From Leptogorgia sarmentosa (taxonomy: Eukaryota): a stretch of 64,000 nt of DNA. Location: contig OZ210885.1 in the NCBI GenBank assembly GCA_964658305.1, positions 4,030,001 to 4,094,000 on the forward strand. The letters are read 5' to 3'. Below, piece by piece: positions 1-63,484 of this stretch. Positions within the stretch are counted from its first letter, which is position 1. Every line of letters starts with the position of its first letter. A program made the position numbers and the translations under genes. Below the pieces are notes generated by a model. It was not told the origin of the DNA and searched no databases. It was given only the letters and a program-made list of their open reading frames with translations.

Positions 1-360
1 TGTATGAGTGAAATTCCTCAACAAGTTCTACCAATGTCTGCTAGCTTACAACATGCCACATAAAGTCAAAAGGTAGGTTGTTGCACGCCCCAAAGACTCG
101 GAAAAGACGTCATGGTGCAACATCTTCTACCGCCTCATCCCCAAAAATGCCATCGCCTCCATTACCAAGGAACGACAGTTTTCTGCAGCAATGATCAACA
201 ACCAAACCCAACTGGTCATCATGGACGAATGGTCGGCGACGAGAATGGACTCGGACCTTGCCAAATGCATCCTGCAAGGAGGTTGGATGGTCAGCGCGGT
301 CAAGTACGACCTTCCACGGACTGTCATGAACAATAGTCCCTACTACATCACCATCAATCA
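1..360 (+). pseudogene. SF3 (D5-like) helicase fragment, copy A of the YR-helicase element
   Basis: Degenerate Walker A (RPKDS-GKTSW across a frameshift, ~86-116), Walker B LVIMDEW, motif C PYYITIN; clearly homologous to 3720-4520 and 52318-52770. Confidence 0.75.
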
Positions 361-539
361 CTCCTCACTCTCCATCACCATCATCATTCGCGTTTCAAAA
401 AAATGTTTTTTAAGAATTTTTATGACCCCCCGTCACCACCACCGCCTCCGGAAATCCTGGTGCCGGACTGGGACCCAGACACTGATGATGATCAATCGCA
501 GTTAATGCCAAATGTGTGTGTCTGTAATTCTTCCCAGTC

Positions 540-974: not shown

Positions 975-1993
975 AGCACTTCACAGGATCTTTTCTTCTG
1001 ATAATGTACCCGGGCAACGTTAGAGCTATGCTTTTGGTCTTCAGATATCCACTGCTGTTCGTTTGGCAGGAGAACGTGCACACTTTCTGTTTCGATAATC
1101 TGTATGTACCTAGTTGGATGAATGTATTTTCCTATTGCTTCAAACACCAATACACTCAAAAGATTAGAAAGTTTTTGGAACTGTTTACCGTTTCGATTCA
1201 CTAACACATAGTCGCAAGTGGGTGTAAGAAGGGGCCTTAAATACGCTATATACTTTTCCAGTAACTGGATCCTGCATTCGTCAAAGTAAACACTGTCAAA
1301 CCCATACGTTTTAGCCGTCTTGAACACTTTTTGATCCACTATTCCTTCGTTTCTTTTCGCACATTCAAACATTCGCAAGGTCAGATGTTGGTAGGTCATT
1401 GGGCGGCAACCTTTCACTTTGAGGAACATGTAAGCTGCAACGAATCTGGTGGCAAATTTCACGTCCCCTGTTTTGACTGTAGAAGGTGATATCATACAAT
1501 TTTCTAATACAGATTTATAACAGTCCTCATGAAATGGAATGACAGATTGTACTTCGGAAAGAGTTGCCCAACTTCTACAGGATGCAAAGTTTTGAAGCAC
1601 TGTTGCAGGGGGACGATTGAATCTGCAAAAACCTAGTAAATCAGAAATACTTGTGACATACCCAATTTGTCCTGATTCTCCAATACACCACTTCTCTTTG
1701 AGAGCGTCCACAAACTTTGTTAATAGTTGTGGAGACCCTAAGGCGTAATCGATGAGATTAGGTGCATTGAGCATGTCTTCTTCGCCCTCGCCATTCTCGT
1801 TACAACAAAACTTTATGAACTTTAATGCTCGCTTAACTGAAACATCCGATTGTGTGGAAGATTTGCCGCCGCCACAGCTGCTTTGAAGCCATTTTGAAAA
1901 CGATCTAGCAAAGTCATTATCTGTAGAACAGCCCGGGACTGCTTTACCACATCTTCGCTGCCTTTCGGTGATTGCAAGCGACGAAAGGCACAC
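975..1993 (-). pseudogene. Tyrosine recombinase/integrase, copy A (N-terminus deleted, C-terminus replaced)
   Basis: Catalytic set R (GCRPMTY), K (VFKTAKTYG), HxxR (HPTR), H..Y (QKHSSNVARVHY); near-identical to 50221-50830 on the opposite strand. Confidence 0.85.
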
Positions 1994-2380
1994 TTCGGAA
2001 CCTAAGCGGTGCGGAACAACTTAAATTGAAAAGGAACAGCTATTTAAACGGAACACATTGTAGAATTAATCAATGATTAATCACCTCACCAAAAGGGGAA
2101 CAACCCCTTTATTTACATGTGTTCCTAATATGATGTTTTAATATATTCATACATGATAGTGAAAGATTTTCACTTCTCTTACCACGTATATTTGCAAATT
2201 TAAATTATTTTTTTGCTTCATTGACCATGCGTATGTTGTGGTTTGGCCCAATAACGGTTATTTGCGCAGCAGACCGTAAATCATGCGAAATTGGCCTTTA
2301 AATTTCATTGTTAAAGGAACAATATTTAGGGATATGTATGATAATCAAAGTACTAAATGTTGTTCCTTTGATGTTCAGAT
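1994..2380. promoter_or_regulatory. Divergent intergenic/control region of the YR-helicase element
   Basis: 2095-2296 is the reverse complement of ~49402-49603; 2340-2375 reverse complement matches ~54092-54122; GGAACA/TGTTCC-rich. Confidence 0.6.
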
Positions 2381-2508
2381 GCACATTTCGTACATGAAAA
2401 CGCTTAAAAAGCCAACACGATTTACACTTTGCCCATAAACATTGCACCGTTCGAGTGACACTGGAAAAACCGTTAGAAAGTAAAGTAAAGTAAAGTAAAG
2501 GGCAAAAC

Positions 2509-3708
2509 TAGGAATCCAAGGATAGTGCAAAGTTTCTACGAAGATATCGAGCTAAAGCTGATGTCGCTTGGCAGCCTGTTTGGCCCTGTTGTGATCCGAA
2601 TTGCCGTTAAAAAATCATTCCATGTAACATCAGCTCAAAGAAAAGCTTGATGTAGTATAATAAAATAATTTAAAAGATTTTATAGCCAAAAAAGGAAATA
2701 CGCACGTTCAAATTTCGCGTTCTCGACATTATTTTGTTGATTCTCTGACCTCTAACCTTCAAGCGTTATAATAATAAAACGGAGTGTAACAACGAACAGG
2801 TGATTATGCAGTACTCAACAAATGTACAACCTGTAGGCTACCTCTGAGTAGTAATGGAAATTCAGTCTACTCACAATTTTAGGCCAACTTTAAATTTACT
2901 TTTCTTCGCCTACATATATAGTTAATTCTACTTGCTGCGAAATTGAAGAATCCCTGAGTCGCTGCCACTAATCATGTAAACAATCTAGACAAGCAACCCA
3001 AGCTTACTGAAGCTGTTGTCCTGTTGACTATTTTCTATCAGTATGATCATGAATCGTGTCGTCTATTTAGTCGACTAAAATATATTACAAGGCAAAAGCG
3101 AGCAACTGGCTGAATTTGATTGTAGTAAATTATTCTTTTACATTGGGAGTACATGGATGGGAATATTTCCATAACAGCTAGGCCGCGACTATGGCGAGAA
3201 CAAATGGAAACAAACACGTTCAAATAAATGCGTGAAGCGAATATATCGACCATTATATATCAATCGTATGAACTAAATAAGATTTAAAATTATGGTTTTC
3301 TTGTTGCGACGAGTTTACTGTGTTACTGCATCAAGTGTACCCTCAAGGCAAAGACGGCAAACTAAAAATGTATGCAGATTTATAATATCCACGGCAGCAG
3401 TTGATAGTATGAGCTATGGCTATTTTTGTTCATGACAACCCATACTTGTTTTCTAGATTCATCACAGATATTAAAATAACATTTTAACCGCTTTGGCAAC
3501 ACGCTCAAAGCTTCAAACATTGTTGAAACTTGGCCACATTACTGATTCAATGTCGCACTCCTTAGCGTCTGCCATATTGTATTACACAAATATTTCATCC
3601 AAAGAACACATGCTGAGTTGCAATTTTCGCAAAAATCCAAATTCGGGAGGGGCTTTGCGGCATTGTGTACTATAACTCGAGGCATCTTAAATTACATTAC
3701 TTCCCTAG
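2509..3708. mobile_element. Non-coding dispersed repeat (putative non-autonomous DNA transposon)
   Basis: Starts CTAGGAATCCAAGGATAGTGCAAAGTTTCTA as at 12033; collinear internal similarity to 12033-12740; ends TTCCCTAG followed by TTAA. Confidence 0.55.
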
Positions 3709-3719
3709 TTAAATTTCTT

Positions 3720-4521
3720 ATCCATACGAATAGCTGCATACTACTGGTTCTCTTTGGACCAAGAGATTCCTGGAAGTCATCCTGGGCAAATATATTTCAT
3801 CGAACAATTCCAGCAAGTGCGATAGCCTCCCTCACGAACGAGGCAATTTTCCAGCGGGATGATCACCAACGACACCCAGCTCGTGATTGTGAACGAGTGG
3901 TCATCCACCAACATGCATGCCGACGTGACCAAATGCATCCTCCAAGGTGGGTGGATGGTGACTGCCGTGAAACACGGTATGCCAAAGACGGTGATGAACA
4001 ACAGCCCCTAATAAATTACCACCAACCATCTACCAACATTTGGCGCTGAGGAAGACGAGAATGTGAGGTGAAGAATCCAGGTGTATGAAACCACATCGTT
4101 GCCGCAATGCATTCCGGAAATAGACCACTGGATCTATGACAACGCCATGGATCGTATCGCGTGGATTGCACAGGAAAATCACCACCACATCGATGCAAAC
4201 GAACTTCGGTACGAGGCCAACAATTTCGCCCCCACAACCATTGGAATGAACGAAGGTGAGCGGCTGTTCAACGAAGCCCAGGTACGTGCCATCTCTGCTG
4301 CTGATCTCCACGAGGAGGAGGACGACATCCAGACCGTCGAGTCTACGGGTGCAACCATTCATCCACGGTTCGCTGCTGAGGTCCGTGCACAACGACTCTT
4401 GGGAAAGAGGAGGAAGAATACTCAGCGGCTTCTCTCATACACCTCAGGAGAAGAGGAAGAACCGGCCATGCCAGATACCCTCCCTTCTACACGTACAGTA
4501 GAGGATAATACCTCTCCTTCC
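3720..4521 (+). pseudogene. SF3 (D5-like) helicase C-terminal half, copy B (frameshifted)
   Basis: LFGPRDSWKSSW (mutated Walker A), LVIVNEW (Walker B), ITTN-like motif C, then YETTSLPQCIPEIDHWI..WIA homologous to 52380-52100. Confidence 0.75.
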
Positions 4522-22710: not shown

Positions 22711-23025
22711 TAATTATTACATTAAACGAGACTTACCTGTAAGTTGAAGTTTGATGGGGATTCTACTGACTTGTCATACCGGAACAAGGGGTCACATGAG
22801 AGATCACCTGATGTACCCAACCTTCAGTCTTTAACAGTCACACAAACACTGCACCACAAGGGTGGGTTTCACAGTTTGAGACTATAGGGTAGGGTGTGAC
22901 CCCTTGTTCCGGTATGACAAGTCGGTAGAATCCCCATCAAACTTCAACTTACAGGTAATTCTCGTTTAATGTAATAATTCTACCTCCTTGTCATACCTGT
23001 CACAAGGAGTCACATGAGACTTTAA
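22711..23025. repeat. DIRS 3' terminal inverted repeat / internal complementary region
   Basis: 22711-22796 is the reverse complement of 22895-22979; TTGTCATACC..ACAAGG.GTCACATGAGA repeated at ~22771 and ~22988. Confidence 0.85.
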
Positions 23026-24623: not shown

Positions 24624-25920
24624 GTCATTACAAGCTTTGGAGTGACTCCCCCCATGTTGTTAAGGTAGGTGACTGCTGTAACATTGTCAATTTTTAAGCA
24701 GACATGCGCATTATGGAAGTTGGCATAAAATGTTTTCAAAGCAAAAAACGCAGCCAACATTTCCAGTTGATTGATATGAAGCTGTGCCTCAATTGTGTTC
24801 CATCTGCCACCTGTTGTTTGGGTATTATAGTGAGCACCCCAGCCTGCCAAAGAGGCATCAGGGTTCCCTTGGGAGATAGGTTTTTGGCTTCCCTGTATTG
24901 AACTTGCCCACCAATACAAATCTTGTTTAGCTTGGCATGAAAGGGTCATACTTGCATCAAAATTACCCTGATTGTGCTTAAGAGCATCACATTTGTCAAG
25001 CTCAAGGGCTCGATAGTACAAAGGAGCATAAGGCACTGCTAAAAAAACTAGCAACAATCAACCCCACGACATGGGCCACCTCATGAATCGATGGCCGTTG
25101 TTCATTATATAAATGCTCACAAGCTGCCCTTAGTTTTCCAGACCATTCTGGTGTCAAGCTCACGGTCATATTCACAGAATTCAGAACATAGCCAAGCAAC
25201 ACTAACTGTTGTGTTGGTTCTCTGACCGACTTCTCATCATGAAGAATAAACCCTAACTTCTGAAACAAGGCAGATGAATCACTGACATTGCGGGCACAAT
25301 CCTGGTAGCTGTCGCCTTGCAGATAGGAGTCATCAATGTAACCAAATATCAGATGGCCGTGCCTCCTCAATGTGGAGTAAACTGGCTTAAGTAGTTTTGT
25401 AAAAATTCGTGGTGCACATGCTAGCCCATTTGGCAGACACGTAAACTGGTAAAGCTGGCCATGCCAGCCAAATTTTAAGTACTTCTGATGTGGTTGTGAT
25501 ATTGGGATTGAATAGTAAGCATCACGCAGATCTATTGATGCCATAAAACAATTTTTCTTCATCATGTGCAGTGCTGTGTGCACAGAATCCATTTTAAAAT
25601 GATGATAAGTGACAAATTTGTTCAGCTCTTTAAGATTCAAAATTAGTCTAAGTACCATTCTTTTTTGGTCTGACAAAAATAGTTGAAAGAAATTCTCCTT
25701 GTTCATGACAAGATGGGGTGATCATCCCTTTGGCTAATAACTGTTGTATTTCTGCCTCTATGGCCTTGTTCTCAATGTCACTCAAACTAAACTGTTTAGG
25801 TACCACTTTTTGTACCGGGGTAACATCAAACTCAATGTGAACCCCTTGTATAGTATGTAGCAGCCAATTGTCATTAGTAAGCTGACTCCAACACTCAGCG
25901 TAGTTTGCTACCCGACCCGC
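24575..25920 (-). pseudogene. DIRS reverse transcriptase and RNase H
   Basis: RLILNLK, SIDLRDAYY, LPNGLACAPRIFTK, GYIDD; DASLAGWGA, HINQLE, IDNVTAV. Confidence 0.92.
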
Positions 25921-25972
25921 AATATCACAACCCGAGCCAGAATTTGTTACTGCAGAAGGACGAGCCGAAGGG

Positions 25973-26706
25973 CTATGATTCACCTGAATTGTGTGAGCAT
26001 TGGTGGTTGTTATTGCGTTGGCTGAAACCGTTTTCCCCCTCTTCGCTTTCTTTGGAAGCTCTGGGGGTGAAACTTCCTGCTCTCGTTTTTTGACTTCTGA
26101 TATGGAAAATCTGAGATGGTTGCCCTTTGTATGACTGGCTGCCATAATGGCGTTGGCTTTTCCCTGCCAATTTCTGGCCAACTCGGTTTGTAGTTGATAT
26201 ATCCTGAAGGGTTTTCGGCAAATCGTCCCCAAACAATTCTGTGGTGCATGGGACATGTTCGGCACACAACTGGCGGTACTGCTCGTTCAAGTCTGGTCGA
26301 ATGAGCTCACACCTCCGCTGGTTTAGTTCGTGATTTGCTTGTGCAGCAAAAGCAATGGCGTCAATGGCCTGAACAATAGCGGCGTTGCTTTGAACGGTCA
26401 TGACCTCGGGTTTCGCTTCCTTCAGCTTTAGGAGGCTTGCTGTCACCTGTGTCTGGGCCACTATGGCTTTAAGTAATAAGCACTGTACTCTTGGTATTTT
26501 AATACCCCAGAGCGTGTATCACTCTGCAATCGCGCCCAAATTGCCACGTTCACTCTCGTGGGAATCATTTTTTCACAGTTCTTTGGGCGAAGATAGTTAT
26601 TTTGCTTTTCTTTTAACTTCTCTTCTCTCATTTTGGTCTGTATGAGTTTTTCAATCAAGGAGGCAAGCTGTTCGGGGAGGTCAAAGTCGTTAGCAATGCC
26701 CGCCAA
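25973..26706 (-). pseudogene. DIRS gag-like ORF
   Basis: RPKNCE..PTRVN..IW, ELNQRR.ELIRPDLN..Y..LC, ELFGDDL; position upstream of RT. Confidence 0.75.
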
Positions 26707-35519: not shown

Positions 35520-38500
35520 AGATTAACTTGTGACTGTAAACAGTAGGTAGAAGTATGCCATTCAGAATCGACACAAGATTTGTTTTGATTGTTTGTGAAA
35601 TGTACATTTCTTCTTCCCGCAAACTTACGGAAGTCAGACAATTAAACCAAAAGGACAGATAACCCTTTGTTGTGAGAAGGATGGAAAGATACATCTAGTT
35701 GATTTCCTTGTATTAGATGTGCCCTCAGACAAGCCACCGCTACTATGTGGATGAGATGCACAAACATTTGATTATTTGAAAATATATGCAGACGAGGTAT
35801 ATACGGTGGAGAAGACGAATGAACCAGCAAACCTTCCACCACCTGGAAATCTAATGAAAGAGGCTGTCTTACTACATTATAAGGACGTTTTTAAACCCGG
35901 AAGAGATAAATCGCTTGGAGAACCTTTACATATAGGAATGGATCCGAACGTCAAACCTGTACATGCGCCCACCAGACGAGTCCCAGTCGCCAAATTAGAC
36001 AAGGTGAATAAAGAATTGAAAAGACTCTGTGATGAAGGAACAATAACGCTGGTAACCCAACCAACGGACTGGCTTTCAAACATGCTAGTAAAAGAAAAAC
36101 CAGATGGCAGAATCAGAATTTGCATTGATCCCAGTCAGACCATCAATAAAGCGATTAAGAGACCAATTTATACCATACCGACCATTGAAGAGAAACTCCC
36201 ATTACTCACAAACGCGAAAGTTTTCACAACTGTTGATGTCTGCGAAGCTTTTCACACCATCGAATTAGAAGAGGACTCTTCATTTCTGACGACATTTCAA
36301 GGCCCGAATGGTCGATATCGCTATACGCGCATGCCATTTGGCATCTCGTCGGGGCCAGAGGAGTATCAGCGGCGTCAATACGAGTTTCAAGAGGATCTAA
36401 AAGGGGTTATAAACATAGCTGATGACATATGCATATTTGGTTGTGGAAACACTAAAGAGGAAGCCGACCAAGATCATGATAAGAGTAATAGCTTTATTAG
36501 ACAAATGCAGCAAGTTTGGCTTGCGATTGTCATCAAAGAAAATTCAATTCAAGTCCAAATCGGTGACTTTTATGGGACATAAATTAACGGATAAAGGAAT
36601 CGTTCCTAATCCATCTAAAGTAACGGCCATAAAGGAAATGCCAAGGCTAATCGATAAAGGAGGAGTACAGCGGTTTCTCGGAATGTGTCAGTATCTTTCC
36701 AAGTTTGTTCCGAATCTCAGTGAAACTGCCCTTCCCCTGAGAGAATTAACAAAACAAGATATGGAATTTATGTGGACCGAGACCCAAGAAGATGCTTTTC
36801 AGAGAGCTAAGGATCCTATTTCTAATGATATGGTTCTTCGGTATTAAGACGTGAGCAAACCTGCAACTTTGCAAGTTGATGCATCGGAAGAAGCAATAGG
36901 TGGGGCATTACTGCAGGACGTGATGATGATGATGATCTTTATTGAGATAACTTTTTCACATAATGTGATTTTCAAAAAGGATCTCAGTCAAAGATACAAG
37001 AAAAAAAATTATGTTACATAAGTAGCTAAAATAACAATTTAGATGAAATCTATTACATATGTTTACAATCGAAACTAGTATAATTTTAAAATCTCGCGTT
37101 TAAAAATGTTAAGATTCGACGATCGCTTGATGTCCCGATTCAATAAATTGAAATCTTTAACGGCATGATATGCAGTCCTTTGTTGACCCTATTGCCTCTT
37201 TGTACTGGGAAGTCTCAGCTTGTCCTTATTTCTAGTACTATACGTCTGTTGATCTTCATGTTTTGACAAGTTCATATTATGATGTATAAGTCCATTTAGA
37301 CATTTATACACATATACACATCTCCTTTGGTAGCGTCTTTTTTCTAGCGACAAGTCAACCGGTGTGCTTTACATCACATAGGTTGGATTCCACTGAAAAG
37401 AACTATGCTCAAATTGAGAAAGAGTGTCTAGCAATTGTAACGTGCATGAACAAATGTTACAAAAGATTCGTCGTGCACACCAAGGACCAGAGAGCAGTAT
37501 CCGACGAGCAAGAGAAGCGATGTTTTGGCCAGGTATGCAAGCGGCCATTCGAGAAACATGTCAAGCCCGTGGAACATGCGCTCAGTATTTGACTCAGAGA
37601 CCGGTAGAGCCAATGCAGTCCCATGATATTCCAATGCTCCCATGGAGCAAAGTAAGTGTTGACATATTGAGTCTGGATGGAAAACAATATCTTGTGACTG
37701 TAGCTCATTACAGTGACTTTTTTGAGATAGACTCACTACAGACTACCCACACAAGTACTGTTATTCGAGCAATGAAGAAAAACTTTGCAAGATTTGGCAT
37801 ACCTCATGAATGTTTGAGTGATAATGGACCTCATGACCACGGTCATGTGTCGTACAAACAGCGAAAGGTGAAGTCCGCCGAAACCACAGACAGATAAGAA
37901 CAGGTATGGTGGAACCGGAGCCAATGAATCAAACGGAACCAACCGTCCACAATGACGAAATATTTTATCCATATGTCTCAAGTAAAAGGATCCCGGAAAC
38001 TGAACCCCAACCTCACATACAGAAGGAATTACCAAGCTCAGACACGGTACAGCAATCACAAGGATCAGAAGCGCCAGTTATTGAGACCTCAGGCGGAGAA
38101 CAGCATCTCTTCTGTCGTTCAAGAAGAAATCGAAAAATGCTAGCTAAGTTCAAGGACTTTATAGTTAATACATAATACCTTTGTGGTCGCAGATTCCTTG
38201 GACGTTAAGACAAACAATGAATAACATTAATAGAACATTTCTTTATAAGATTATATTATTGTTTTGGGTAGGATGGGTTGGGAAAAGAACGGTGTTTCTA
38301 TACTACTAGAACAAGGAGGGTGTTATAGGTACATGTTAATTATGTATGTAATTATATTAATTAGGATTTAGGATAGGTTATATATTGCTTTGTGTAAGCT
38401 AGATTGGAGTTAGTTATTAAATGTTTAACAAATGTTGTAAACTGTAAAAGATTGGTCGGCATAGTACAGTACAGTACAGTACAGACAATAAAGCTCACTT

Positions 38501-45338: not shown

Positions 45339-46555
45339 TTCTCTTTTAACAAATAGGAACGGCATTTGGGCATTTGAGACAGGTGTCTGCAGGGTTCTGG
45401 GAACATGCCAATGGCAATTCGTTTTCCTTAATAGTTATATATTATTATCATAATTAACCCATATTAAGCGGACTCCTCTTTTAAACGAACAGATATGAGT
45501 GGTCTCGAAGGTGTCCGCTTGATAGGTTCAACTGTGTTTCAAGCCTAATAATTACGGTCAATGTATCTTCTTACCCAGGCGAAAGCGTCGCCACTTTCGT
45601 CCTCGCTCAATTGGTCTTTGGTATGTTGAGCGAGGGTGTACGTCGTGAAGACGACGCCTCCACCACGCTGGATTCTTCTCAGGTTTCGCATTCGAATTTA
45701 CAAATCGTGGTGACCTGTCTCGTAAATAAACAGGGACAGTTTGATTGTACTGCCGATATGCACTGCTAAACATCAGGTTACTTTGCATGTATTGTTGATA
45801 TGAGTCAGGAATGAAACTTTCCACAATTGTGGTTTCAATACCATACACAGATTTATCTACTGACCGTGGTAAATATTCATATTTGAATAACTTGTTCATT
45901 GCCCCCGCCTCATTGTTAGTATTAACAACGTTGACCACCTTGCTGCCGAAAAGCTTGCGCCCAGCACAACGAACATGAAAACCAAGTGTTTTCAACTTAC
46001 ATTTAAATTATTTTGAATCGGCGTAGCTGTAACAGCTATCTTGTGCCAGGCTGTGATGGCTCTCACGGCCTGGTTAGTTTTGGTTTTTGGGTTTTTATGG
46101 CTTGCGCCTCTTCCAGAATGATGTAGTGATGTATATAATGAGAGAATATACTGCGTTCATTTTTTTGCTTACATTACATCTGACCGAATGTCTATTGGCG
46201 CTACATTCTCTTTCAACAAATAGGAATGGCATTTGGGCATTTGAGACAGGTGTCTGGAGGATACTGGGAACATGCCAATTGCCCTTCGTTTTCCTTAATA
46301 GTTAAATATTATTATCATAATTAACCCGTATTAAGCGGACTCCTCTTTTAAATGAACAGATATGAGTGGTCTCAAAGGTGTCCGCTTGATAGGTTCAACT
46401 GTGTTTCAAACATAATAATTGCCGTCAGTATATCTCTTACCCAGGTGAAAGCGTCGCCACTTTCATCCTTGCTCAATTGGTCTTTGGTATGTTGAGCGAG
46501 GGTGTACGTCGTTAGGACGACGCTTCTGCCTTGCTGGATTCTTGTCAGGTTTCGT
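45339..46555 (+). repeat. Pair of diverged ~350-bp direct repeats (45339-45690; 46206-46555)
   Basis: Both run from TTCTCTTT.AACAAATAGGAA.GGCATTTGGG to GGATTCTT.TCAGGTTTCG. Confidence 0.85.
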
Positions 46556-48505
46556 GTTCTCCTAATTTTATTCTTTCCGTGAAAGGAGACATTTTCTATT
46601 TCAGGCACCCAGAAATTTTTTATAAAAAATTATATACCGAGTGGCCCAAAAAAAGTACTCATCTCTGATTCATTGTAACTTAAAAAGTAAAAGAGTTCTG
46701 ACACTTAAACAATAGGCATTGTATTCAGTAATGTCTAACTTAAATTTTCGTATATACCATTTGCATTTTAATACTGTATTGACTGAGATAACTGCGTTTA
46801 AATTTGAGTTAACGTTTCGGGAAATGTAGGAAATGAGCAAAAATTCATTAAAGTATTTTGTCAACGACAGTTTATAATACGTATAAGTATTCGTTTCATA
46901 AATTGAAGTTTAAAAATGTTTACTGAACAGATATGTTCATTATATGAACTTTTGGAATGTGCCATAAAATTTGGAATGTGCCACATGATGAACAATCACA
47001 TAATTTGAGAGTGCTTTGTGAGGCAATTGTAACAGCATGCCGCAACCTGGATGCCCAGATGATCCGAAATTCATTCGACTGCATGCTCACACAGGCAAGA
47101 AAGTGCATTCTTGCTGCGGGGCATACATTTACTAGTTTGAACTTCCTTAATAATTCGGCTTTGAACACGCTCTCCTCGGTTGCATACGATATTCTTTGCA
47201 TTTGGTTCAAGAACATTTCTTGTTCTTCCGGAGCTTCATTCAGTTTCTTTAGAATGGCTTGTTTGGCTGTTTTTATGCTGTTACTGGATTTGCATTTGTC
47301 TTTGTCCAGAAAATATTCCTCAAAAATCTCAATGCAGCGAATTTGCAAGGTGGCAGGACACTCGAGTTTGCGACTGTTCTGCAGTCTAACATGTTGTTTC
47401 TTTGCATAATTGTGGGGTCCCACTGGCTGTGGACGATACCCTCCTCTTCCGTCCTAAATTAAGGCAAGAGGACAGCACAGCGTAAAATAGTGCTGTGTTT
47501 CATATGTGATACGAACAGTAGATAGGTGTTGAATGTAAACGTATATATTTATTCCTTGCTTTTCTAGACTCCATCAGAGCATTTTTCACCATAGCGACCT
47601 TGGGTACAGGGTAAAAATCACATTCTTGTGTTGTAAAACAGAATCAAGAACATAGCACTAAACTGACTATGCAACGTTGAAAGTTGTAGAGTATTTTTAT
47701 AAATAATTAAATAATGAAAATTAAAATATAAAACATACCGAACATAAATCTATGCACATAAAACATGTTTGAGATAAATTTGTTATGACAAGCATTTAGT
47801 ATTTGCATACGTATAACTATTTCAAATGTAGTCGGTAGTTTGCTGTGAAGATCTTAAACTCTCTAAAAATCTCATTGTCTCCTACTGTTAGTCATCACAT
47901 GTCAATCATGAGAGGGGTGGGGGCAATAGTACCCCCTGTTAATACTGAAAATTGATATGTTGCTTTTAATTTGTTAATATCGACGACGTGAAATTTTGAC
48001 TTAAAATTATCCTACCTACCAAAAGCTTTTCTCTCTTATACAAATGTGATTAGAACATTGTCACTAAATCGTCTCGTATGACATTTACAACATTGTTGCG
48101 GTATCAAATTACTGTCGCATATTGCATGTAGTATTAAACTATAATTTCTCCTTCAAAACAATCTTCAGAATATTCCTTAGATAGAACCTAATATTGCTTC
48201 ATACAAAGTACATAGGAATTAAAAATATTTAGTGCGAGTTGAAACGCTGGCTGATAGTCAAGTTTATGAATTATGTGCGACTCATAACTACCAATTTATA
48301 AAATTAAAATTAACCCACCTGCTTGCGTGAATCGTTTATTCTTCTTGTCTTTCGAATTAATCGCCAGAAATCTTCGTAAAATCGCTTCCAATTCTTTATC
48401 ACTTCCATCAAAGAATACCGAACAACAATCGTTTTCAAAACTTACGCCATCAAAGTGTTCATTGATGAAGGAAACCTCAATGTCTCTCAGTGACTTCTCT
48501 GCCAT
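45700..48505 (-). mobile_element. Fragments of a spliced MULE/CaRF-like transposase
   Basis: SRKLECPATLQIR (WRKY/GCM1-like), FKYEYLPRS..YQQYMQSN..SSAYRQYN..VPVYL; putative first exon 48320-48505. Confidence 0.45.
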
Positions 48506-48626
48506 GACACAAAGGGAAAAGCCAGGGAAAACCCTTTTTTAAATATGGCGCAAACATATTGGGGATTTTCAGGGTATTGGGGGGATCATGTGTTAATTAA
48601 TTCAAAAGATTGCCACTGACCATTAG

Positions 48627-49210
48627 TTACTGCACGCGCACCCTCTCTCCGCCCGGGATGTAACGTTTCCTGATTTTTTTTATGACACTGGCCACATCAC
48701 TCGCAGAAGAAAAGGAGGGAGGGTGTACGTTCAAAGCGTGTGTGTTGGCAATGTTTACAACAAGCCCGTCTGATTTCAATCTCTCCACTGCTGCTGATAA
48801 TCTGTCTGCGTATTCGCCTTCATTCACCACCATTACCACACAAGGATGAGAAGGGAAATGGGTTGAAGTTAACTCTGCTTCGCTGTCCACTTCATCATCC
48901 GTACACGAATCAGTGGCGTTGTGGTAACAGTAAGGGTTGGACACATCAAGCATTTTTTGGATCGAAGTGTTGTTGTGATCTTTTACAACTTGAAAAAGCT
49001 GTCGAGCTTAAACGATACTGCTTTACGATTTTCAGTTACCTGGACAAGTGAAGTGATGCGAATAATAGTTAAAAATTGCATAACAATTGCGTGCAATAAT
49101 TATGTGTTATGCAATTGAAATGCTTCAATACTTACCAAAGGCAATATGTTTGCTCGCAGTGAATTTTGTATCCTTTTCGAGTTTAGCTCTTTGCGAGGTC
49201 GCGGTGGCAT
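48627..49210 (-). pseudogene. 5' part of the helicase gene, copy D (exon 1 + truncated exon 2)
   Basis: MPPRPRKELNSKRIQNSLRANILPL|GTAAGT (49210-49136); QLFQVVKDHN..MLDVSNPYCY..AVERLKSDGLV homologous to 53983-53270. Confidence 0.75.
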
Positions 49211-49900
49211 GTTTCGGCTGTGCACTTTTACCTCCACCGGGTTTCACTTGTTGAGTTTCACTTGAGTCTCACAGACAACACTATTTCGGCTTTTGCAGCG
49301 TTTAAATACTAAACGTTTTGCATGCATGCATGTGAAGCGGAACTGAATAACTGACTTTGGTTATCATGCATATAATTTTTTCTTTTACAATGAAGTGAAA
49401 AGACCAATTTCGCATGATTTACGGTCTGCTGTGCATATCATTGTGATTGGGCCAAACCACAACATTATACACATGCTCAATCAAGCGAAAAAATAATTTC
49501 AATTTGCAAATACCTGGTAGGAGAAGTGAAAATCTTTCACTATCATGTATGAATATATTAAAACATCATATTAGGAACACATGTAAATGAAGGGGTCGTT
49601 CCCATTTTGAAAAGGAACAGCTATTTAAACGGAACAAATTGTTCCTCCTTGACTTCAGTTGTTGTTGCACCACTTATGTTCCAAAATTCGGAACGCTTTA
49701 ACAAATATTGATCAAGGAACAACAATAATTGTTGTTCCTTTATTTAGGAACAAAATGTTCCACACTTGCACATATAATAGCTATTGAAGTGGAACGATTT
49801 GTTCCCTTTGCACATTGGCTGTTGTTGTTCCCTTTTATTATTCCCTTTTATTGTTCCCTTGTGAAGGAAGCATTGTAATGAACAATACATTTCTCACAAT
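49211..49900. promoter_or_regulatory. Divergent helicase/recombinase intergenic region with a dense GGAAC/GTTCC array
   Basis: More than a dozen GGAAC or GTTCC occurrences in 49570-49870, several as short palindromes (GGAACAAATTGTTCC, GGAACAAAATGTTCC). Confidence 0.65.
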
Positions 49901-49942
49901 GGAGTGCCTTAGGCTGTTAATAAGAAACTCTATTTATGCAGT

Positions 49943-50902
49943 TTGCATTTGCAAGTGTTTATTATAAAAGGCAAGGAACTTTTGCTTGCAAACCATTTTG
50001 TCCTTTACATGTTTGCATGTGGAAAAGGTCAAATAGATTGGAAGTCTGTAGACCTTGTCACAAAACCGAGGCAATTGCATTTGGTGAAAGACACCGATGG
50101 CTTAGATCATTGTCCAGCAATAGGTTGTGAACATTCAGGATTTGGCAGTCAAAGAGGCTGTTGTAAACATGTTAAAACGAAACATGGCTGGTATTACTAT
50201 TTTGATGTGAAGCCTGATGTGTGCCTTTCGCTGCTTGCAATCACAGAAACGCAGCGAAGATGTTGTAAAGCAGTCCCAGCCTGTTCTACAGATAATGACT
50301 TTGCTAGATCGTTTTCAAAATGGCTTCAAAGCAGCTGTGCTGGCGGCAAATCTGCTAAACAATCAGACGTTTCAGTTAACCGAGCATTAAAGTTCATCAA
50401 GTTTTGTTGTGACAAGAATGGCGAGGGCGAGGAAGACGCGCTCAATTCACCTAATCTGATCGATTACGCCTTGGGGTCTCCACAACTATTAACCAGGTTT
50501 GTGGACGCTCTCAAAGATAAGTGGTGTATTGGACAATCAGGACAATTATGTGGCAAGTATTTCTGATTTACTAGATTTTCGCAAATTCAATCGTCCCCCT
50601 GCAACAGTGCTTCAAAACTTCGCCAATCATCCCCCTGCAACAGTGCTTCAAAACTTTGCAGTTACCGAAGTGTATGTAAAGAGAGCACGAAAGTATTTAG
50701 CCAAAGACATGAAATCAAATCGATCAAATCTGCGATCGAACAGCAGTGGATATCTGAAGACCAAAAGCATAGCTCTAACGTTGCCCGTGTACATTATCAG
50801 AAGAAAGGATCTCGTGAAGTGGCCATGAGAGGACGTGAGTGCATGAAAAAATTAATTGAGAGAAGTAATAGTTCACAGAGAGAAGATGAGAATGAACAGC
50901 AG
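49943..50902 (+). pseudogene. Tyrosine recombinase copy B: C2H2 finger + core-binding region, catalytic middle deleted
   Basis: CPAIGC..KHVKTKH finger; near-identical to 1993-1585; jumps at ~50730 to EQQWISEDQKHSSNVARVHY; 33-bp duplication at ~50591-50658. Confidence 0.85.
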
Positions 50903-51640
50903 TCCTCGTCTGCGCCCACACATGTGTGCAACACACGCCCATCATTTCCACCCGGAAAATAGCCAAATGTACTCGAGGCCCTTGCTTCACATGTGAGGAA
51001 GATAATGTCATACGCTTGGACATTGCAAAGTTCGGTTTTCGTTGGACAATGATATTACGCCATCCAGAATATAACTTTAATGCATGTTGTGTGGCAAATA
51101 CTTTAAGAAAGAGGGCGGAAGCCTTGAACTTAGTTTAATAGTTAAGCGTACACCTTAAATGATTTTTGTATTAAAAGTGTGAATGAAATGAAAGAAATTG
51201 TGTTAAAATGAATACATGCTTAATTTGTTTTTGCAACAGTTGTTCTACTCAATTCACATGGCAAACGTTTTTAGAAACAAACCCCAACCCAGCACATAAA
51301 CCCCAACCCAGCACATAAACTGACCCTACAGTAACTGTGTTAATACACTGCCATTTTCAGAATAACAACTTTATTAAAGTCACGTGATCCCTGAGTACAG
51401 GGATCCCAAGCACATATTGTAACATCTTCCCCCTTAAAGATTTCTTATAGTTATATTAGAGTACTTAATGTTAATATCCAACATAATATAAATGATTGTT
51501 CGCTTTGAGTTGAGCTTTCAGACAGTTGTGAGGTGTCATAGTCCTTGAGGTAACTTGGTGGCTTTCTTTGACGGTGCCTTTCTTTGACGGTGCCTTTTTT
51601 CTATTTGGCAAGGTGAGCGGAGTATATATATATATGTATA

Positions 51641-53983
51641 TCAACGCCACCAATTTTTAATTGTGCTCCAAAACGTCTGTGGAGGGTGTGTGATACCTGT
51701 AGAGGTGGATGGCTCATTATTCCAGGGTAATGCGCCTGCTTCAGGAGTGTCGACTCCGTCTTCATAAGGTGTGTGCGATCCGTCTGCTTCTAGTGTTTGG
51801 GGTGCGTATTCTTCAGGTGTGTGCAAACCGTCTTCTTCAGGTGTGTGTGATCCGTGTTCTTCTGGTGTGTGCGATCCGTCTTCTTCTGGTGTGTGTGATT
51901 CGTCTTCTTCAGGTGTGTGGGATCCGTCTTCTTCAGGTGTGTGGGATCTGTCTTCTTCAGGTGTGTGCGATCCGTCTTCTTCTGGCGTCTTTGATCGGGG
52001 CGGCTCAGTTGGGTGTGATGTGGACATGTCCATTTCCTCTGCAACGTTTTCGCTGGGATTTTCTGGCGAGGAACTGTCGCTTAACTGCCGTCCATGGCAA
52101 CGCTTTCTGGCGAGACGTCTTGACCTGCCTTCTTCAACAAACCCACAATGTATGGTTACGTCCCTCCCTGCCCTATTAACATGCTCTCGTTCCGGTTCCA
52201 GATCTGCCTCGCTAATCTGTACAATGTTGGTTCTCATCCACTGCGCAGCAATGTTGTGGGATGGAACCATGTCCCTGACAGTGTCCTCGTCTTCATACCA
52301 CAGCTCCGCAGGTGGGATCAATTCATGATGTCTGTTGATTTCTTCTGCCATCCACGCGATGCATTGACGAACAGCCACTGGTCGATCCCAGAGTTGGCAG
52401 GGATTGAGATTGTTGGAGTTGGCAGGGATTGCGTGGGGAAAATCTGAATACGACGTTCCACATTCTCGTTTTCAGTACCGAAGTCAGGAACGTTGTTGGT
52501 GGTAATGTAGAAGGGGCTGTGTGAGTTCACACGTCTGGGCTGACAGTGCTTCACGGCAGTGACCATCCAGCCACCTTGCAGAACCGTCTTCGCCAGATCT
52601 GCGTTCATTGTGTTGGCTGACCATTCGTCGATAAAGACGAGTTGCGTCCCGTTGGTGATCGTGGATGCAGAAAATTGGCGTTCGTTGGTGATTGAAGCAA
52701 TGTATTCTTCGGGGATTATGCGCCGGAAGATACTTGCCCAAGATGTCTTCCCAGAATCATGAACATCTTCTTCGGGGAACGAGTTGCGGATGCCATCGCG
52801 AAAGTGGTTAGGTTGAGGGGGTGATGAACAGTCATACGGGACGTAGCCTCGCCGTGACAACTTGCCAATCATGGAGTCGTTGATGGGATTAAGGTACGAA
52901 GGCTCTGTCGGAGATCGAGAAGCAGAAGCCGTTGGACACTTCGATCAGATTCACGTCAAAGCACATTTGTTCCACAATCTCACAGGCTGGATGGGAGAGG
53001 AATCTTTCGATGCTGCTGACGTTTTTGGCAAGGCTGTCGTTCAGGGCATCATTCGCAAGCAGCTTGTTGAGGTAGCTGGACACATCCATCAACCGTACGT
53101 ACGTGATTCTGGCTTCATCGGGTCTGCCGTAGATGTCACCTCGGTACAAGGCGTGATTACATAAACATAATTCCATAACGCGTTGAATTTTGCGTATCGT
53201 CAATATGGTGTGTCGCATCGTGTATTTGATGGGCCTTTATCACATTCTGCGCAAACTCTGGTGTCCAGCACTAGCCCGTCAGATTGCAATTTTTTTACAG
53301 CGTCCTGGAATTGTTCGACGTATCCACAATGGCTCACAACGACGAGACAACAAGGACGTGTAGGACAGTGAGTTGGATGCAATTCCTCGGCCTCCCCTTC
53401 ATCTTTGTTCTCGCTTTCACTTGACGAATGTGGCGCATTCTCATAGCAATACCAGTTGGATGCGTCCACCATATCCTGCATTGATCCATTGTTGTGGTCC
53501 TTCACGGTTTGGAATAGTTGGCGAGCCACACTTTCCATGTCATGATTACTGCGGTTTCTTACATGAATCGGTCGAATTTCCAGTTCCACATCCTTGTCAT
53601 GCAACGCAGCAAAAAATGTGTCGTCGTCACATTGCTCGTTCGGCTGGTACACAATAAAAAAGGACACACAAGAATAGGTGTTTTCTCCAGCATTCGCGTT
53701 GCTCTGTTCAGCTTTCGTGGTGTTGGGATTGGAACAGACGCTCGAAATGCAGGAAAAGAAACAGATCACACCTTCGATTGAAGTAAAATACATGCAACTG
53801 CTCGATGTTTGGGTCTAATCTAATGCACGTAAAATAGGGAAGTTTATTTGAAGCTACAGTATGTGCATTTATTTGCAGAAAGACAAGGGAATACTTGCAT
53901 GTACTTACCAAGCTCAAAATGTTGGCTCGAAGCGAGTTTTGTAGGTGCTTCGAATCTAACTCCTCTTGTGGTTTTGCTGCCAT
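51641..53983 (-). pseudogene. D5/SF3-like helicase gene, copy C (most complete; spliced, frameshifted)
   Basis: Exon 1 53983-53909, phase-0 GT-AG intron, exon 2 from 53643; NLIEVSNGFCF (D5_N-like), DSGKTSW, LVFIDEW, FYITTN, ERRI; acidic tail. Confidence 0.8.
51755..51990 (-). repeat. 24-bp coding minisatellite (TPEEDGSH)n in the helicase tail
   Basis: About 9-10 in-frame units of GTGTGTGCGATCCGTCTTCTTCAG. Confidence 0.9.
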
Positions 53984-55004
53984 TTTGTGATGTGCTTGCT
54001 CGATGCACTGTACAGGCTAGGCAGGTCACAGGAGTTTACTGCCTTTTTATTCTAATGTTTACTATAGTGTTTTTACTGTTTTTTTCTTGAATCGTAAAGG
54101 AACAATATTTAGCACTTTGATTGGATTGCTAGTTATATTTTTTAGTATGATGGTATTTACATAGGGAACAATATTTGGTCCTCAAGGCATGATCCTCCAC
54201 CAATATCACCAATATTAAATGTTATATTTATTGCCTGAAACTAATTCAAGACGTAAAATGAACACAAAAACGTTCGAAAAAATTTAGTCAATCAGCGCTA
54301 AGTAATTTCCACCCCAGGAAGAAATGCCTTCCTCATTAGCCAATCAGGTTTTAGTAATTTCGACAGCAAACGAAGCAATCTGATTGGCTAAGAAAAGGCA
54401 TGGATGCACCAGACGGGAAAAATAAAGTAGTGCAACGGCGGGATTTGCGGGTAATCCGGACTAATTGATAACAATGCCATACTAGTTTATTATACCCCAC
54501 CGTTAATGTTCAAATTAAATCAGTCGGAATTTAAAGGGCACTATTTGTCATATCATCAGGACCGACTGACTTTAACAAGCATACATTTCAAAGCATATAC
54601 GTAATCAGATGTGTATGTATATGGGGGCATATCAGGGGCGTCGCGAAACGTGTTTGAATGGGGGGGATGGTGTAAGGTTACATTTTGCCGAGTGGTCAAA
54701 AGGTCTCTACAAATTATACCTATATACCCTTATTACTCTAGTGTATAGACACGAAATCATACAGCTACCATGCCACCAACTCTCGCATAAGTAGTGTACG
54801 TAATCGACTGATATGACTTCTAAACGTGTAGAGTTGAAGGTTTAGGGTTTATAGTACGCAAAGGACATGTTATCTATATATATCTATATATATATATATC
54901 ATACTACCACTGTTTGTAAACAAAAATTTGCAAAGCCATATAGCTTGCTGAGCTGTATTTTAATTGATCTGAAAAATGCGTATAAATTATATTTGGCTAC
55001 CCTC

Positions 55005-59551: not shown

Positions 59552-62500
59552 TCATTTGCATGCGTCATCTCTACATTGGACATGTAAGGTAAGAGCACCT
59601 TGAAAGTAGCTTTTTAGCTGACAAATCTCCAGCAATGTACATAGCCCAGTTAGTTTACCTTCTACCTGCCGATATTTCTTTCTTTGCCTTCTCTTCAGTT
59701 TCTCTTCCGACACTAATCGAACTTGCATATCCACCAGTTCCGCTTGTTCATGGAGAAGTCGCACCATCAGATAATAATTGAGGTTCCCACGCTTTGCATG
59801 TCTGTTCAACATACCATGCCAACCTTCGACATCATTGTTGGTTCTTACAGCTTGGCAAAAAACACTCCACGTTTCTGGTTTCCACAATTCACCTTCAATA
59901 ACGATAAATTGAATATATTATTATTTTATGAGTATCACATACTTCGTCCTACAAGTGATGAAGAACTTGGGCAGAAGAGAGAGGGGGGCTGGTGATTTTT
60001 TTTCCCACCACAAACGGTAAAAATTTTCCCTTATCGTCTACCAATATACTGCACACAATCTCTTACCTTCTATCCAGTTCGCACGAATATACTCCACCAG
60101 TTCTGCCAGGGTTGGTGTTGTAGCCTTTGCAGCAAGTTTCTCAAACACAGCTGGTATGTGTTCCTTCGGTAAATATGGAAGTGCCAGGAACTTTCTGCAC
60201 AGTTTATGGGTCGCGTCGTCGTCTTTATAGGCAGGGGCCAGACCTATGTCCTGGATCTTCCTCCAGATGCACTGTGCCCAGTGAAATGAGCAGCCACGAA
60301 TTAACACATCTGGGAAAACATGTGGGATTGCTCGCCATAACACACACTCGAAATCCAAAACAATTTTTTCGAGTTTTCTTCCTCTCGTTAAGCCTTCAAT
60401 GGCACGTAGAACTTTTCTGTAGTCTTGTTTTCGTTTCCCCGACATCAACACAAAGGCAAGTGGTACTTGTTTCACACATTCTCCGCTTCGCACAAATGAA
60501 TGAATTGTGAACAACTGGGTGAAAGGCTCTTTGACTACTTTAAATGTTCCATCAACATACCATGTCTTAGATTTTGACAGCAAATCAAGCATGTTTTGAG
60601 TTGCAAATGCCAGGTGTCGCCTTCCATCTATCTTCACGTCAGATTTCAGAAAATCTTCTGGTATATGGTCTTCGTTGACTTCAAACTCTAGGTCTGTTGG
60701 CTCAGCTGGTCGCATTTTCTGCTGGTGGTGGTTAGCAGCTCTCGCAAGCTACTTGGGGGTTTCTCAAAGCTGACAAAGGTTCATTGGAAGTAGCTACACC
60801 CAGTTCCAACATAACCTAATTAAAGAATAAAGAATATAGGGACAAAATTCTTTTCCAATGCGAAATATGCAATGGTAGACGTACACCTTCAGTACCTTAT
60901 TAACAATTTCAGCTGCAGATGTAAAGATTTCCGTTGCTGCCATTCTCTTGACTGACGCTGCGACGTTTGTGGCAGTTGCCGCTCCAAGTTGGGCTGGATG
61001 TGTGTGGAGTTGTGATCCTTGTGTGAACCCATTAGTTTTCTGCAGCACTGTTGCTTTGCACCACATAGACTTATTTCGCTCACTGTACCTCCAAACTTTA
61101 TTGCCATTCGCCCTGCGCACTTTGACTATGTATGTGTAGCCCTGGCTGTCCGCCAGTTTTTCCTTCCCTTTCTGCGAGCCATCTTGAATCACCTGATAAG
61201 TTATCACTGTTGGTACGCCTGCACGATCACATTGCCTTGGAGTGTCGTCATCAATTGAAGATTCCACTAACTGCTCAGGAACTTCAAAACTGGGCATGCT
61301 ATCGTATGAATCTTCCTCCATAGCGGTGTTACCTGCCTCAACAGTTGTTTCCGGCAAACTTTCAGTTGCTGAAGAGAAAGGTGCAGGTTTTTAATATAAG
61401 AAGAGCCTATATATGCACTCATATAACTCCATGCTATGCATAACATAACTTCATATACTTATATAACTTCATGCAATCATATAAGTCCGTACAGTCATAT
61501 AAGTTCACGTAACTTATCATGCACTAACATAACTTCATATACTCATATAAGGTCCATATACTCACGTAACTTATCATGCACTAACATAACTTCATATACT
61601 CATATAACTTATCATGCACTAACATAACTTCATATACTTATATAACTTCATGCAATCATATAAGTCCGTACACTCATATAAGTTCACGTAACTTATCATG
61701 CACTAACATAACTTCATATACTCATATAAGTCCATATACTCACGTAACTTATCATGCACTAACATAACTTCATATACTCACGTAACTTATCATGCACTAA
61801 CATAACTTCATATACTCATGTAACTTATCATGCACTAACATAACTTCATATACTCAAGTATTGAACATGAGCCAATAGTCATTGGCTACTAATAGTTGTG
61901 AAATCAATCATAGACAATTGTGAAATGGTTGTGATTGGTTTGTCACTGAAATGGCATCAGCCGTGCATCTGTGGGATGCGTGATCAAACTGTAGAACTGG
62001 TTTTATGGGTGTTTCCTTATGATTATGGAGAGATAAAATGCCTGAAATAACCATTAAAACAAAAAGGGGAAATAATGAAAAAAAGATTGGTGAATGCAAT
62101 TGATACCTTGAGGGCCGCAGTCCATTTCTCCAGGTGCGTCAGTTTCGGAATTGCTGGCTGCCATGTCGACCAACATCATCACCAAATCTTCATCTACTTC
62201 ATCTACTTCTTGTCTGGCTGCAAGTAATCAAGTTATTAACAGTTTTGATATCATCTGGGTGTTTATTGAAAGCTGTTTCAACTATTTTTGTATGGCTATA
62301 TGAATTAGAATACTCACATTCTTCAACCAGCCTCGTGCTCTCTGCGGCAGGCAACAAGAATCCCACGCTCAAATTAAGGCAGTCTACGCAACGCCAGTCA
62401 ATTTCTTCACCGCATCTAACAGCGGTTCGATACGCGATTAGCGAGATCCCACCGTTGCAGGTCCGATGTTGCCATCTTTCGCAGCAATCACATAACAGCC

Positions 62501-62570
62501 CCTGTTGCCGAGCTCTTACAGGCTCCTTGCAGCGAATGCAGTTATCTTCAGCAGACATCTTCAGTAAAAT
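59552..62570 (-). mobile_element. Spliced Mutator-like transposase: PHD - FLYWCH - MULE DDE
   Basis: CIRC..LCDCCERWQHRTC..WRCVDC; VWRY..CKATV..HTH; WYVDGTFK, VLDFE, GCSFHWAQ, RTNNDVEGWH; frameshifts present. Confidence 0.88.
61410..61857 (+). repeat. Intronic minisatellite, ~38-bp unit CACGTAACTTATCATGCACTAACATAACTTCATATACT with higher-order duplication
   Basis: Direct inspection; a ~180-bp block is repeated at ~61436 and ~61616. Confidence 0.9.
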
Positions 62571-63484
62571 GGTGAATAGAACTTCTGACTGTAGCGCAGC
62601 GGTGGTGAATGTTCGAGTGAAGATACTGTATACTTGTAACGCATTTTATACGATTGTGTTTGGCCATTGATGACAATGACTGCGCAAGAACAATGGCATG
62701 GTATCATCATTGTATCACAATAACTTATTGTGATACAGTCAATAACATCCGGATGACTACATGCTTCTGTTCAAGTTTTGTTTTTAATATTTTTAAATGT
62801 TTTGTCCCAAAAATATAGTAGGTTAGCAATATATCTCAAGGCAATATATCTCATACACGTGTATTTGATTGGGTAATGAATGGAAGTTGCCTATCAATCG
62901 CAAGTTTATATCTGGAAATTATGTGTAACCGCTATAGTCTTCATATTTTGATTTTTAATTTTTTTGATTTTTAAAAACATTTATTCCTTCCTGTATTAAA
63001 CAATTCTCTTGTGCGTAATCTTCATTATGTTTTAGCTTTGTAAATATAAATTTTATATGACTTATATACTTTAAAATATTTGTAATTCCTTTTTATATGC
63101 TCTTTTAAATGAACCTTATTTTCATAACTTTCATTGTTGTAAAGTAACACGCATTCCAGCTGTATTTAGCTGCAATGTGTTTTCTCAAAATCTATCTATC
63201 TTATGGCTTTTTGAAGATTTTTACAACAGCAAAATCACTTCGAGCAGATAAAGTTATCCGACTTTCGAACAACCGAACTTGCATGACGACATGATGACGC
63301 TGCATGCTACATGGAAGTTGTAGGATGTTTCGCATTTCCTGCGTGATGGACAATCATGTGAGGAATGATGACACGCTTACTTAAAAAAGCCCATTCAATT
63401 TGGATTTTATTCTTCTGTTAATTTTTAGTGCAAAGTTTCAAAGAAACTTTGCAGTATTGTGATGAGTGGGGAAGATTCACATCA

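What the first reader, a model, noticed from the sequence alone, without database searches (positions are those of the whole stretch)
48627..54180. Candidate undescribed eukaryotic DNA element: tyrosine recombinase + intron-containing D5/SF3 helicase
Seen: a tyrosine recombinase with an N-terminal C2H2 finger (49943-50902 +) faces a helicase gene (53983-51641 -) with Walker A/B and motif C. The same gene pair recurs at 1-1993, so the linkage is a unit rather than chance nesting. No RT, DDE transposase, pPolB or capsid ORF lies inside the unit. Known: Cryptons encode a YR alone, DIRS pair a YR with RT, and Helitrons use HUH + SF1 helicase. YR + SF3 helicase is typical of phage satellites, integrative plasmids and Polinton-like viruses. 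Inference: a ~5-kb capsid-less integrative element adapted to an animal nucleus, excising via the YR and replicating with the helicase.
Basis: partly seen in the sequence, partly recalled or inferred. Interest (0 to 1): 0.9.

Follow-up and report, generated by a model that had tools for sequence, protein, structure and literature searches.

The report
Coral transposon with virus-type replication helicase
This is a broken copy of a 7-8 kb jumping gene common in corals and their relatives, which pairs a Cre-like recombinase with a virus-type DNA helicase and likely cuts itself out as a circle, copies that circle with the host's replication machinery and re-inserts, a life style known from bacterial integrating elements but not found described for animal transposons in the papers searched.

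Summary
The gene pair is real; both window copies are dead. The recombinase at 50009-51138 (+) has lost its catalytic core; the helicase at 53983-51641 (-) has an intron, frameshifts and deletions. Relatives are abundant in cnidarians (893 and 267 proteins). In metagenome loci a convergent helicase follows the recombinase in 27 of 27 loci with at least 1.4 kb downstream; the 24 longest fall into 11 clusters. Whole elements are 7.8-8.2 kb, carry only these two conserved genes, and have defined ends. Two right-left junctions form a lox-like site, 11-bp arms around an 8-bp spacer. Ends often sit in simple repeats. Predicted folds are Xer/Cre-like (weak scores) and D5-type SF3 helicase. One helicase subfamily ends in a PCNA-box-like motif (69 of 85). 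No capsid gene or viral-contig match was found. It works like a Crypton, most like CryptonV (cnidarian, microsatellite-targeting), which I saw only as a citation and could not compare, so it may already be in Repbase. Circles, replication and expression are inferred, not shown. The two genes do not co-diverge.

The parts
48594..49210 (-). 5' part of a second, diverged helicase gene (exon 1 49210-49136, donor 49135, N-terminal domain); likely the right part of a neighbouring element lying head to tail
   Evidence: tblastn and splice check; tblastx to 53983-53263
49288..49900 (+). Non-coding region upstream of the recombinase, homologous to 2026-2413 of copy 1; holds 15 GGAAC/GTTCC sites (49574-49857) with three GGAAC-N5-GTTCC palindromes
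   Evidence: 3 palindromes against 0.10 expected, 0 of 100 shuffles
50009..51138 (+). Tyrosine recombinase pseudogene: C2H2-type finger, helical core-binding domain, catalytic core deleted, last His and Tyr kept, C-terminal single Myb
   Evidence: family alignment; fold of relative P0001; Myb
51139..51640 (.). Gap between the convergent genes (about 500 nt; 64-547 nt in 31 related loci)
51641..53983 (-). Helicase pseudogene: exon 1 53983-53909, intron 53908 to about 53820 (acceptor read by eye), N-terminal ferredoxin-like domain, D5-type collar and SF3 ATPase, 24-nt repeat tail (51739-51982); frameshifted and partly deleted
   Evidence: fold of relative P0122
54096..54122 (+). 27-bp GGAAC motif, 25 of 27 identical to the motif upstream of the copy-1 recombinase, 112 nt upstream of the helicase ATG; start of a further left-end remnant or a subterminal site. 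The true ends in the window were not found
   Evidence: 0 of 300 shuffles; lox scans negative
8..361 (+). Copy 1 helicase piece (Walker A to motif C), cut by the window start
977..1993 (-). Copy 1 recombinase, catalytic motifs present, finger and Myb missing
2013..2413 (-). Copy 1 upstream region with seven GGAAC/GTTCC sites
3534..4467 (+). Further broken helicase piece, divergent from copy 1

Best explanation
The window holds dead copies of a 7-8 kb, two-gene DNA transposon of cnidarians that likely excises as a circle through its tyrosine recombinase, is likely amplified by its D5-type helicase with host replication proteins, and likely re-integrates into simple repeats or next to a resident copy. 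Shown: two conserved convergent genes, fixed ends, near-identical copies in different flanks, an 11-8-11 inverted junction where right and left ends meet, intact catalytic residues in the family. Inferred: the junction is the recombination site of the circle; the helicase's N-terminal domain binds an origin as in papillomavirus E1 or SV40 T antigen (known proteins recalled); the C-terminal box recruits PCNA; no primase or polymerase is encoded, so synthesis would be by the host; the Myb domain may steer targeting.
For: Linkage: 27 of 27 loci with at least 1.4 kb downstream, 30 of 33 with at least 1 kb; the 24 longest form 11 clusters at 95%. Mobility: eight copies 99% identical over 7.1-8.2 kb with different left flanks. 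Ends: left motif 16 hits in 15 of 85 loci, right motif 7 credible hits of 8; elements with both ends are 8,160 (L006) and 7,810 bp (L016); junctions in L017 and L081 with 10 of 11 arm positions paired and an 8-bp spacer. L081 has two elements head to tail inside one (CTTTCTCT)n tract, the same layout as the window. YR residues R299, K327 52 of 52; H394 49; R397 52; H424 51; Y433 51; top fold hits XerA, integrase, XerH, Cre. Helicase fold hits: ASFV PrimPol, poxvirus D5/E5, SaPI5 primase-helicase. PIP-like tail in 69 of 85 full-length proteins against 0.6% background. Only two conserved coding blocks in 20 representative loci.
Against: No circle, replication or transcript was observed; the read-level test was not available. 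Junctions could be tandem integrations or assembly products, and metagenome assemblies of repeats can be chimeric. YR and helicase distances are uncorrelated across 11 clusters (Spearman -0.02, 2525 of 5000 permutations), so partners are swapped and not strictly co-adapted. L001 and L054 have the recombinase and apparent ends but no helicase, so the helicase may be dispensable or supplied in trans. YR fold E-values are weak (best 2.6e-3). The helicase N-terminal domain is ambiguous: metal-binding ferredoxin folds score Z 8.4, Rep/HUH domains Z 6.4-7.0. The window's own subfamily lacks the PIP-like tail (0 of 79), and its ends were not found.
Confidence: 0.6

Rival explanations
1. It is an ordinary cut-out-and-paste Crypton (possibly CryptonV as already curated in Repbase) in which the helicase is an accessory, helping strand exchange or repair rather than copying the circle.
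For: Ends, 11-8-11 site and short shared core fit the Crypton description in PMC3212892 (passages read). CryptonV is cited as cnidarian and microsatellite-targeting in PMC8869645 (passages). A helicase relative is annotated in Nematostella (P0525). Recombinase-only copies exist; no co-divergence.
Against: The helicase is kept in one position and orientation across two subfamilies only 20-26% identical, is of the replicative D5 type and often ends in a PCNA-box-like motif.
Confidence: 0.25
2. It is a satellite or reduced Polinton-like virus that depends on a helper virus for replication or packaging, or a remnant of a larger viral genome.
For: YR plus helicase is the usual PLV module, and 52 of 4,862 coral polintovirus elements carry a YR (PMC11131425, passage). 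The helicase fold is viral/phage D5.
Against: Elements with both ends are 7.8-8.2 kb with no third conserved gene; no relative in IMG/VR in three protein scans or among GenBank phages; spliceosomal-type intron in the helicase.
Confidence: 0.12
3. The two genes belong to separate elements that are nested by chance or by target preference.
For: Partner swapping; helicase-only pieces in the window; the window is rich in transposon debris.
Against: Fixed orientation and 64-547 nt spacing in 31 loci, inside shared ends.
Confidence: 0.03

Closest known systems
CryptonV (Kapitonov and Jurka 2012, Repbase Reports; seen only as a citation and one sentence in PMC8869645, and as a name in PMC4455052 and PMC5753468)
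   Same: YR DNA transposon of cnidarians; insertion into microsatellites
   Different: No helicase is mentioned in the text seen; sequences and the original report could not be compared, so identity with CryptonV is neither shown nor excluded
Cryptons A, F, I, S (Kojima and Jurka 2011, PMC3212892; passages read)
   Same: YR with R-H-R-Y, no RT, no long terminal repeats, short shared core at the ends, proposed circular intermediate, 11-13 bp arms with 6-8 bp spacer
   Different: Second gene is a D5/SF3 helicase (the word helicase occurs 0 times in that paper); C2H2 plus Myb architecture; no DUF3504 or GCR1_C hit in 52 members. A RepeatMasker label Crypton-H exists (listing); what it denotes was not found
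Polinton-like viruses and coral polintoviruses (PMC11131425 passage; 10.64898/2026.10.13.758929 passages)
   Same: YR paired with a helicase-type replicase
   Different: No capsid, penton, packaging ATPase, PolB or primase-polymerase domain detected; 8 kb, two genes, intron
SaPI/P4-type phage satellites and integrative plasmids of prokaryotes (recalled; SaPI5 helicase is a fold hit)
   Same: Integrase plus D5-type helicase, lox/att-like site, tandem accretion
   Different: Animal nuclear element, intron, Myb and zinc finger, no conserved primase motif seen
Telomere-repeat-targeting nimaviral YRs (PMC10871703; passages read)
   Same: C2H2-bearing YR that integrates into simple repeats in animal genomes
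   Different: Those belong to 280-400 kb viruses; sequence relationship not tested

Membership tests
Crypton | Tyrosine recombinase with R-H-R-Y catalytic residues | tested here: met
   49-52 of 52 aligned members keep each residue; fold hits XerA/Cre, weak E-values
Crypton | No reverse transcriptase or DDE transposase inside the element | tested here: met
   ORFs of L006, L016 and conserved blocks in 20 loci
Crypton | Short direct repeat core at the ends, no long TIR/LTR, lox-like recombination site | tested here: met
   11-8-11 junction in L017 and L081; a 1-4 bp CCT-type core at both ends read by eye. Shown in stony-coral-type loci, not in the window
Crypton | YR falls within a named Crypton clade | not testable with these tools
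   No Repbase or Dfam sequences available; no tree with Crypton YRs was built
CryptonV | Insertion into microsatellites in cnidarians | tested here: inconclusive
   8 of 12 distinct left flanks and 3 of 5 right flanks are simple or tandem repeats by eye, no shuffled control; L081 lies inside one tract
CryptonV | Sequence match to Repbase CryptonV consensus proteins | not testable with these tools
   Repbase Reports not held
Polinton-like virus / Maverick | Major and minor capsid proteins, packaging ATPase | tested here: not met
   No third conserved ORF in elements with both ends; no IMG/VR relative
DIRS-type YR retrotransposon | Reverse transcriptase/RNase H | tested here: not met
D5-type SF3 helicase | D5 collar plus AAA+ domain with Walker A, B, motif C | tested here: met
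   Foldseek E 4e-5 (PDB) and 4e-8 (BFVD), VIA Z 8.4 over residues 220-555; Walker A 181 of 199; motif C Asn is Gln in 99 of 120 of the stony-coral set
HUH Rep / Helitron / Replitron | Active HUH nuclease with His-u-His and catalytic Tyr | tested here: inconclusive
   Rep domains align over residues 1-187 at Z 6.4-7.0, within the range of common folds; no conserved HUH seen in the alignment

The most novel reading that the evidence does not exclude
Cnidarian genomes carry a widespread, still active class of integrative, self-amplifying DNA element, the animal counterpart of phage satellites and integrative plasmids: a Cre-like recombinase with its own lox site plus a D5 helicase fused to a dead Rep-like origin-binding domain, which replicates as a nuclear episome by recruiting host PCNA, swaps helicase modules between families and piles up in head-to-tail arrays.
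Probability: 0.4. Interest if true: 0.87.

Novelty: new variant of a known kind. Interest (0 to 1): 0.67.

Why it matters
How Cryptons gain copies is open, since excision and re-insertion alone do not raise copy number; a linked replicative helicase gives a testable answer. The work also yields a defined lox-like site and intact recombinases from an animal element, so Crypton-type transposition can be assayed directly, and it offers a minimal link between Polinton-like viruses and transposons. Recent, 99%-identical insertions in corals would be a source of genome variation and a possible tool.

Tried and rejected
No whole genome is held, so copy number and empty sites in this host were not tested; no read data were obtained, so expression and circles are untested. 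IMG/VR scans with three alignments and one DNA motif found nothing; phage tblastn no match; helicase scan of prokaryote genomes nothing; the YR scan gave five contigs in MAGs, which I read as host contamination (L081 is rich in microsatellites). PDB sequence search found only the Myb domain. The ESM Atlas gave nothing for the helicase N-terminal domain (best 0.77). I first read (TAC)n and (TAA)n tracts as right ends and weighed hairpin-ended, protelomerase-type replicons; L081 showed such a tract is the loop of an internal inverted repeat with the true end further on, so that was dropped. The CTGTAAGT motif is at chance level in the window. Similarity of the L009 flank to the right end was not significant (33 of 300 shuffles). 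GGAAC arrays as a helicase origin are unproven: L001, without helicase, has the array downstream of YR, and 14 or so of 34 loci lack it upstream. Codon-position differences between the window's YR copies (8, 7, 14 in 110 codons) show mostly decay. Eight paper searches (listings and abstract starts) showed no description of a two-gene YR plus SF3 element; one Kojima review was not held; no supplements were read, and those of PMC3212892 may bear on family identity.
Full report
Observation. The window is animal DNA full of transposon debris (DIRS-, Gypsy-, LINE-, MULE- and Tc1-like ORFs recognised by eye; MULE confirmed). No whole genome is held. The closest named relatives of both genes are octocoral proteins (Paramuricea clavata, Dendronephthya gigantea). 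Mapping full-length relatives on the window gives a recombinase at 50009-51138 (+) in four pieces that lacks residues about 229-413, and a helicase at 53983-51641 (-) with a 25-codon first exon, a phase-0 donor at 53908 and four further pieces in alternating frames. The pair recurs at 8-361 (+) and 1993-977 (-). Two more helicase pieces lie at 3534-4467 (+) and 49210-48594 (-). All are broken.

The proteins. The recombinase family has 893 members in the first search and 379 clusters at 50% identity with E up to 1e-30; Atlas clusters are all eukaryotic, commonest Cnidaria, one Chordata on few records. Members are about 550 aa: C2H2-type finger, helical domain, catalytic domain, single Myb (41 of 52 hit Pfam Myb at E up to 0.05; TRF1/TRF2 and Myb among PDB sequence hits). 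The model of P0001 (pLDDT 79) matches XerA, a staphylococcal integrase, XerH and Cre at the top, with weak E-values, and the six catalytic positions are kept in 49-52 of 52. The helicase has 79 and 267 relatives in two searches, named from Oculina, Acropora, Montipora, Porites, Actinostola, Nematostella and octocorals. The model of P0122 (pLDDT 65) matches ASFV PrimPol, poxvirus D5/E5 and SaPI5 helicase. Its N-terminal 186 residues form a ferredoxin-like fold; Rep/HUH domains align over the whole of it (Z 6.4-7.0) but small metal-binding domains score higher over part (Z 8.4), and no HUH or primase motif is conserved: inconclusive, best read as a non-catalytic DNA-binding domain. There are two subfamilies, 20-26% identical. 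The stony-coral type ends in a PIP-box-like motif (69 of 85 proteins of 700 aa or more; 0.6% background); the window's type ends in a YWxxIKxW tail, 15 of 79 exactly in WRPW (the PIP and WRPW labels are recalled).

Linkage. The one metagenome scan kept the best 80 of 196 YR loci. A helicase lies downstream on the opposite strand in 27 of 27 loci with at least 1.4 kb of downstream DNA, 30 of 33 with 1 kb and 31 of 42 with 0.5 kb; none of 18 with 1.5 kb upstream has one there. The 24 longest linked loci are 11 clusters at 95%. All linked loci carry the stony-coral type; for the window's type the linkage rests on the two window copies. Across 20 representative loci only the two genes are conserved. 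YR and helicase distances do not correlate over the 11 clusters (two helicase stretches include extra DNA), so modules are exchanged. L001 and L054 lack the helicase.

Ends and mobility. Eight copies of one family are 99% identical over 7.1-8.2 kb and four of another 99.9%, with different left flanks. A left-end motif and a right-end motif, both derived from these same loci, mark 16 and 7 credible places in 85 loci. L006 (8,160 bp) and L016 (7,810 bp) have both ends. In L017 and L081 a right end joins a left end to give 11-bp inverted arms around an asymmetric 8-bp spacer, the form that PMC3212892 gives for YR sites (passages read). L081 holds two internally deleted elements head to tail inside one (CTTTCTCT)n tract: a helicase 5' piece, then a GGAAC array and a recombinase, the window's layout. 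By eye 8 of 12 distinct left flanks and 3 of 5 right flanks are simple or tandem repeats (no control). GGAAC/GTTCC sites are 13.5 per kb upstream of YR against 1.5 elsewhere over 34 loci, though absent in many; the window has the same array. These ends come from metagenome assemblies, which can be chimeric, and the corresponding ends were not found in the window.

Mechanism. Most likely the recombinase joins the two ends to release a circle, the helicase loads through its N-terminal domain and lets host polymerases copy it, and the recombinase inserts circles at pyrimidine-rich repeats or at the end of a resident element. The anatomy is shown; circles, replication and the role of each domain are inferred. 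Rivals: helicase as accessory to a plain Crypton (0.25), helper-dependent viral satellite (0.12), chance nesting (0.03).

Comparison. It meets the structural Crypton features that could be tested and fails those of Polinton-like viruses and DIRS. CryptonV is described as cnidarian and microsatellite-targeting in one sentence and a citation in PMC8869645; PMC4455052, PMC5753468 and PMC13465017 only name it (passages). I could not compare sequences, and a family this common, present in Nematostella, may well be curated in Repbase. PMC11131425, PMC10871703, PMC11071296 and 10.64898/2026.10.13.758929 (passages only) describe YR or SF3 genes in larger or capsid-bearing viruses, not this unit. Eight searches listed no paper on it. 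Earlier notes of this scan report Crypton-like YRs paired with other helicases or nucleases in other genomes; these are unchecked leads. Verdict: a real, widespread, recently mobile element; new variant of the Crypton kind; interest 0.67.

Noticed in passing
window 45558-46007 (-), part repeated at 46205-46559: 149-aa ORF with no Pfam hit; weak match (26% over 98 aa, E 0.003 in a single comparison) to helicase residues 242-337, the stretch that would follow the piece ending at 48594. Unresolved.
   Followed up: partly
proteins P0121-P0199, C-termini: 15 of 79 helicases of the window's subfamily end exactly in WRPW, recalled as the Groucho/TLE co-repressor motif; the helicase may also repress transcription.
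   Followed up: partly
L081 6563-7141; L015 14096-14221: Long internal inverted repeat with a (TAC)n or (TAA)n loop between the helicase start and the right end; a candidate origin or promoter structure where assemblies often break.
   Followed up: partly
L001 43-3822: 3.7-kb recombinase-only copy between (TACA)n and (CAACAG)n tracts, with the GGAAC array downstream of the gene.
   Followed up: partly
window 54192-54200: ATCCTCCAC, the same letters as the L017 junction spacer, 210 nt upstream of the helicase ATG but without inverted arms; may be chance.
   Followed up: partly
window 23121-26518 (-): Broken DIRS-type retrotransposon (gag-like, RT, RNase H, YR pieces, by eye), bounded by an 85-bp inverted pair at 22712-22979; its YR did not match this family.
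   Followed up: no
window 4502-5313 (+); 35755-37897 (+); 21246-22391 (-); 60038-62645 (-); 46920-47453 (-): Tc1-like, Gypsy-like and LINE-like remnants by eye; MULE (Pfam 3e-9) with a PHD-like ORF; ALS2CR8-domain ORF (Pfam 1.5e-8).
   Followed up: no
L081-L085: Family members sit in contigs of bacterial MAGs in the prokaryote collection, most likely animal host DNA binned by mistake.
   Followed up: partly
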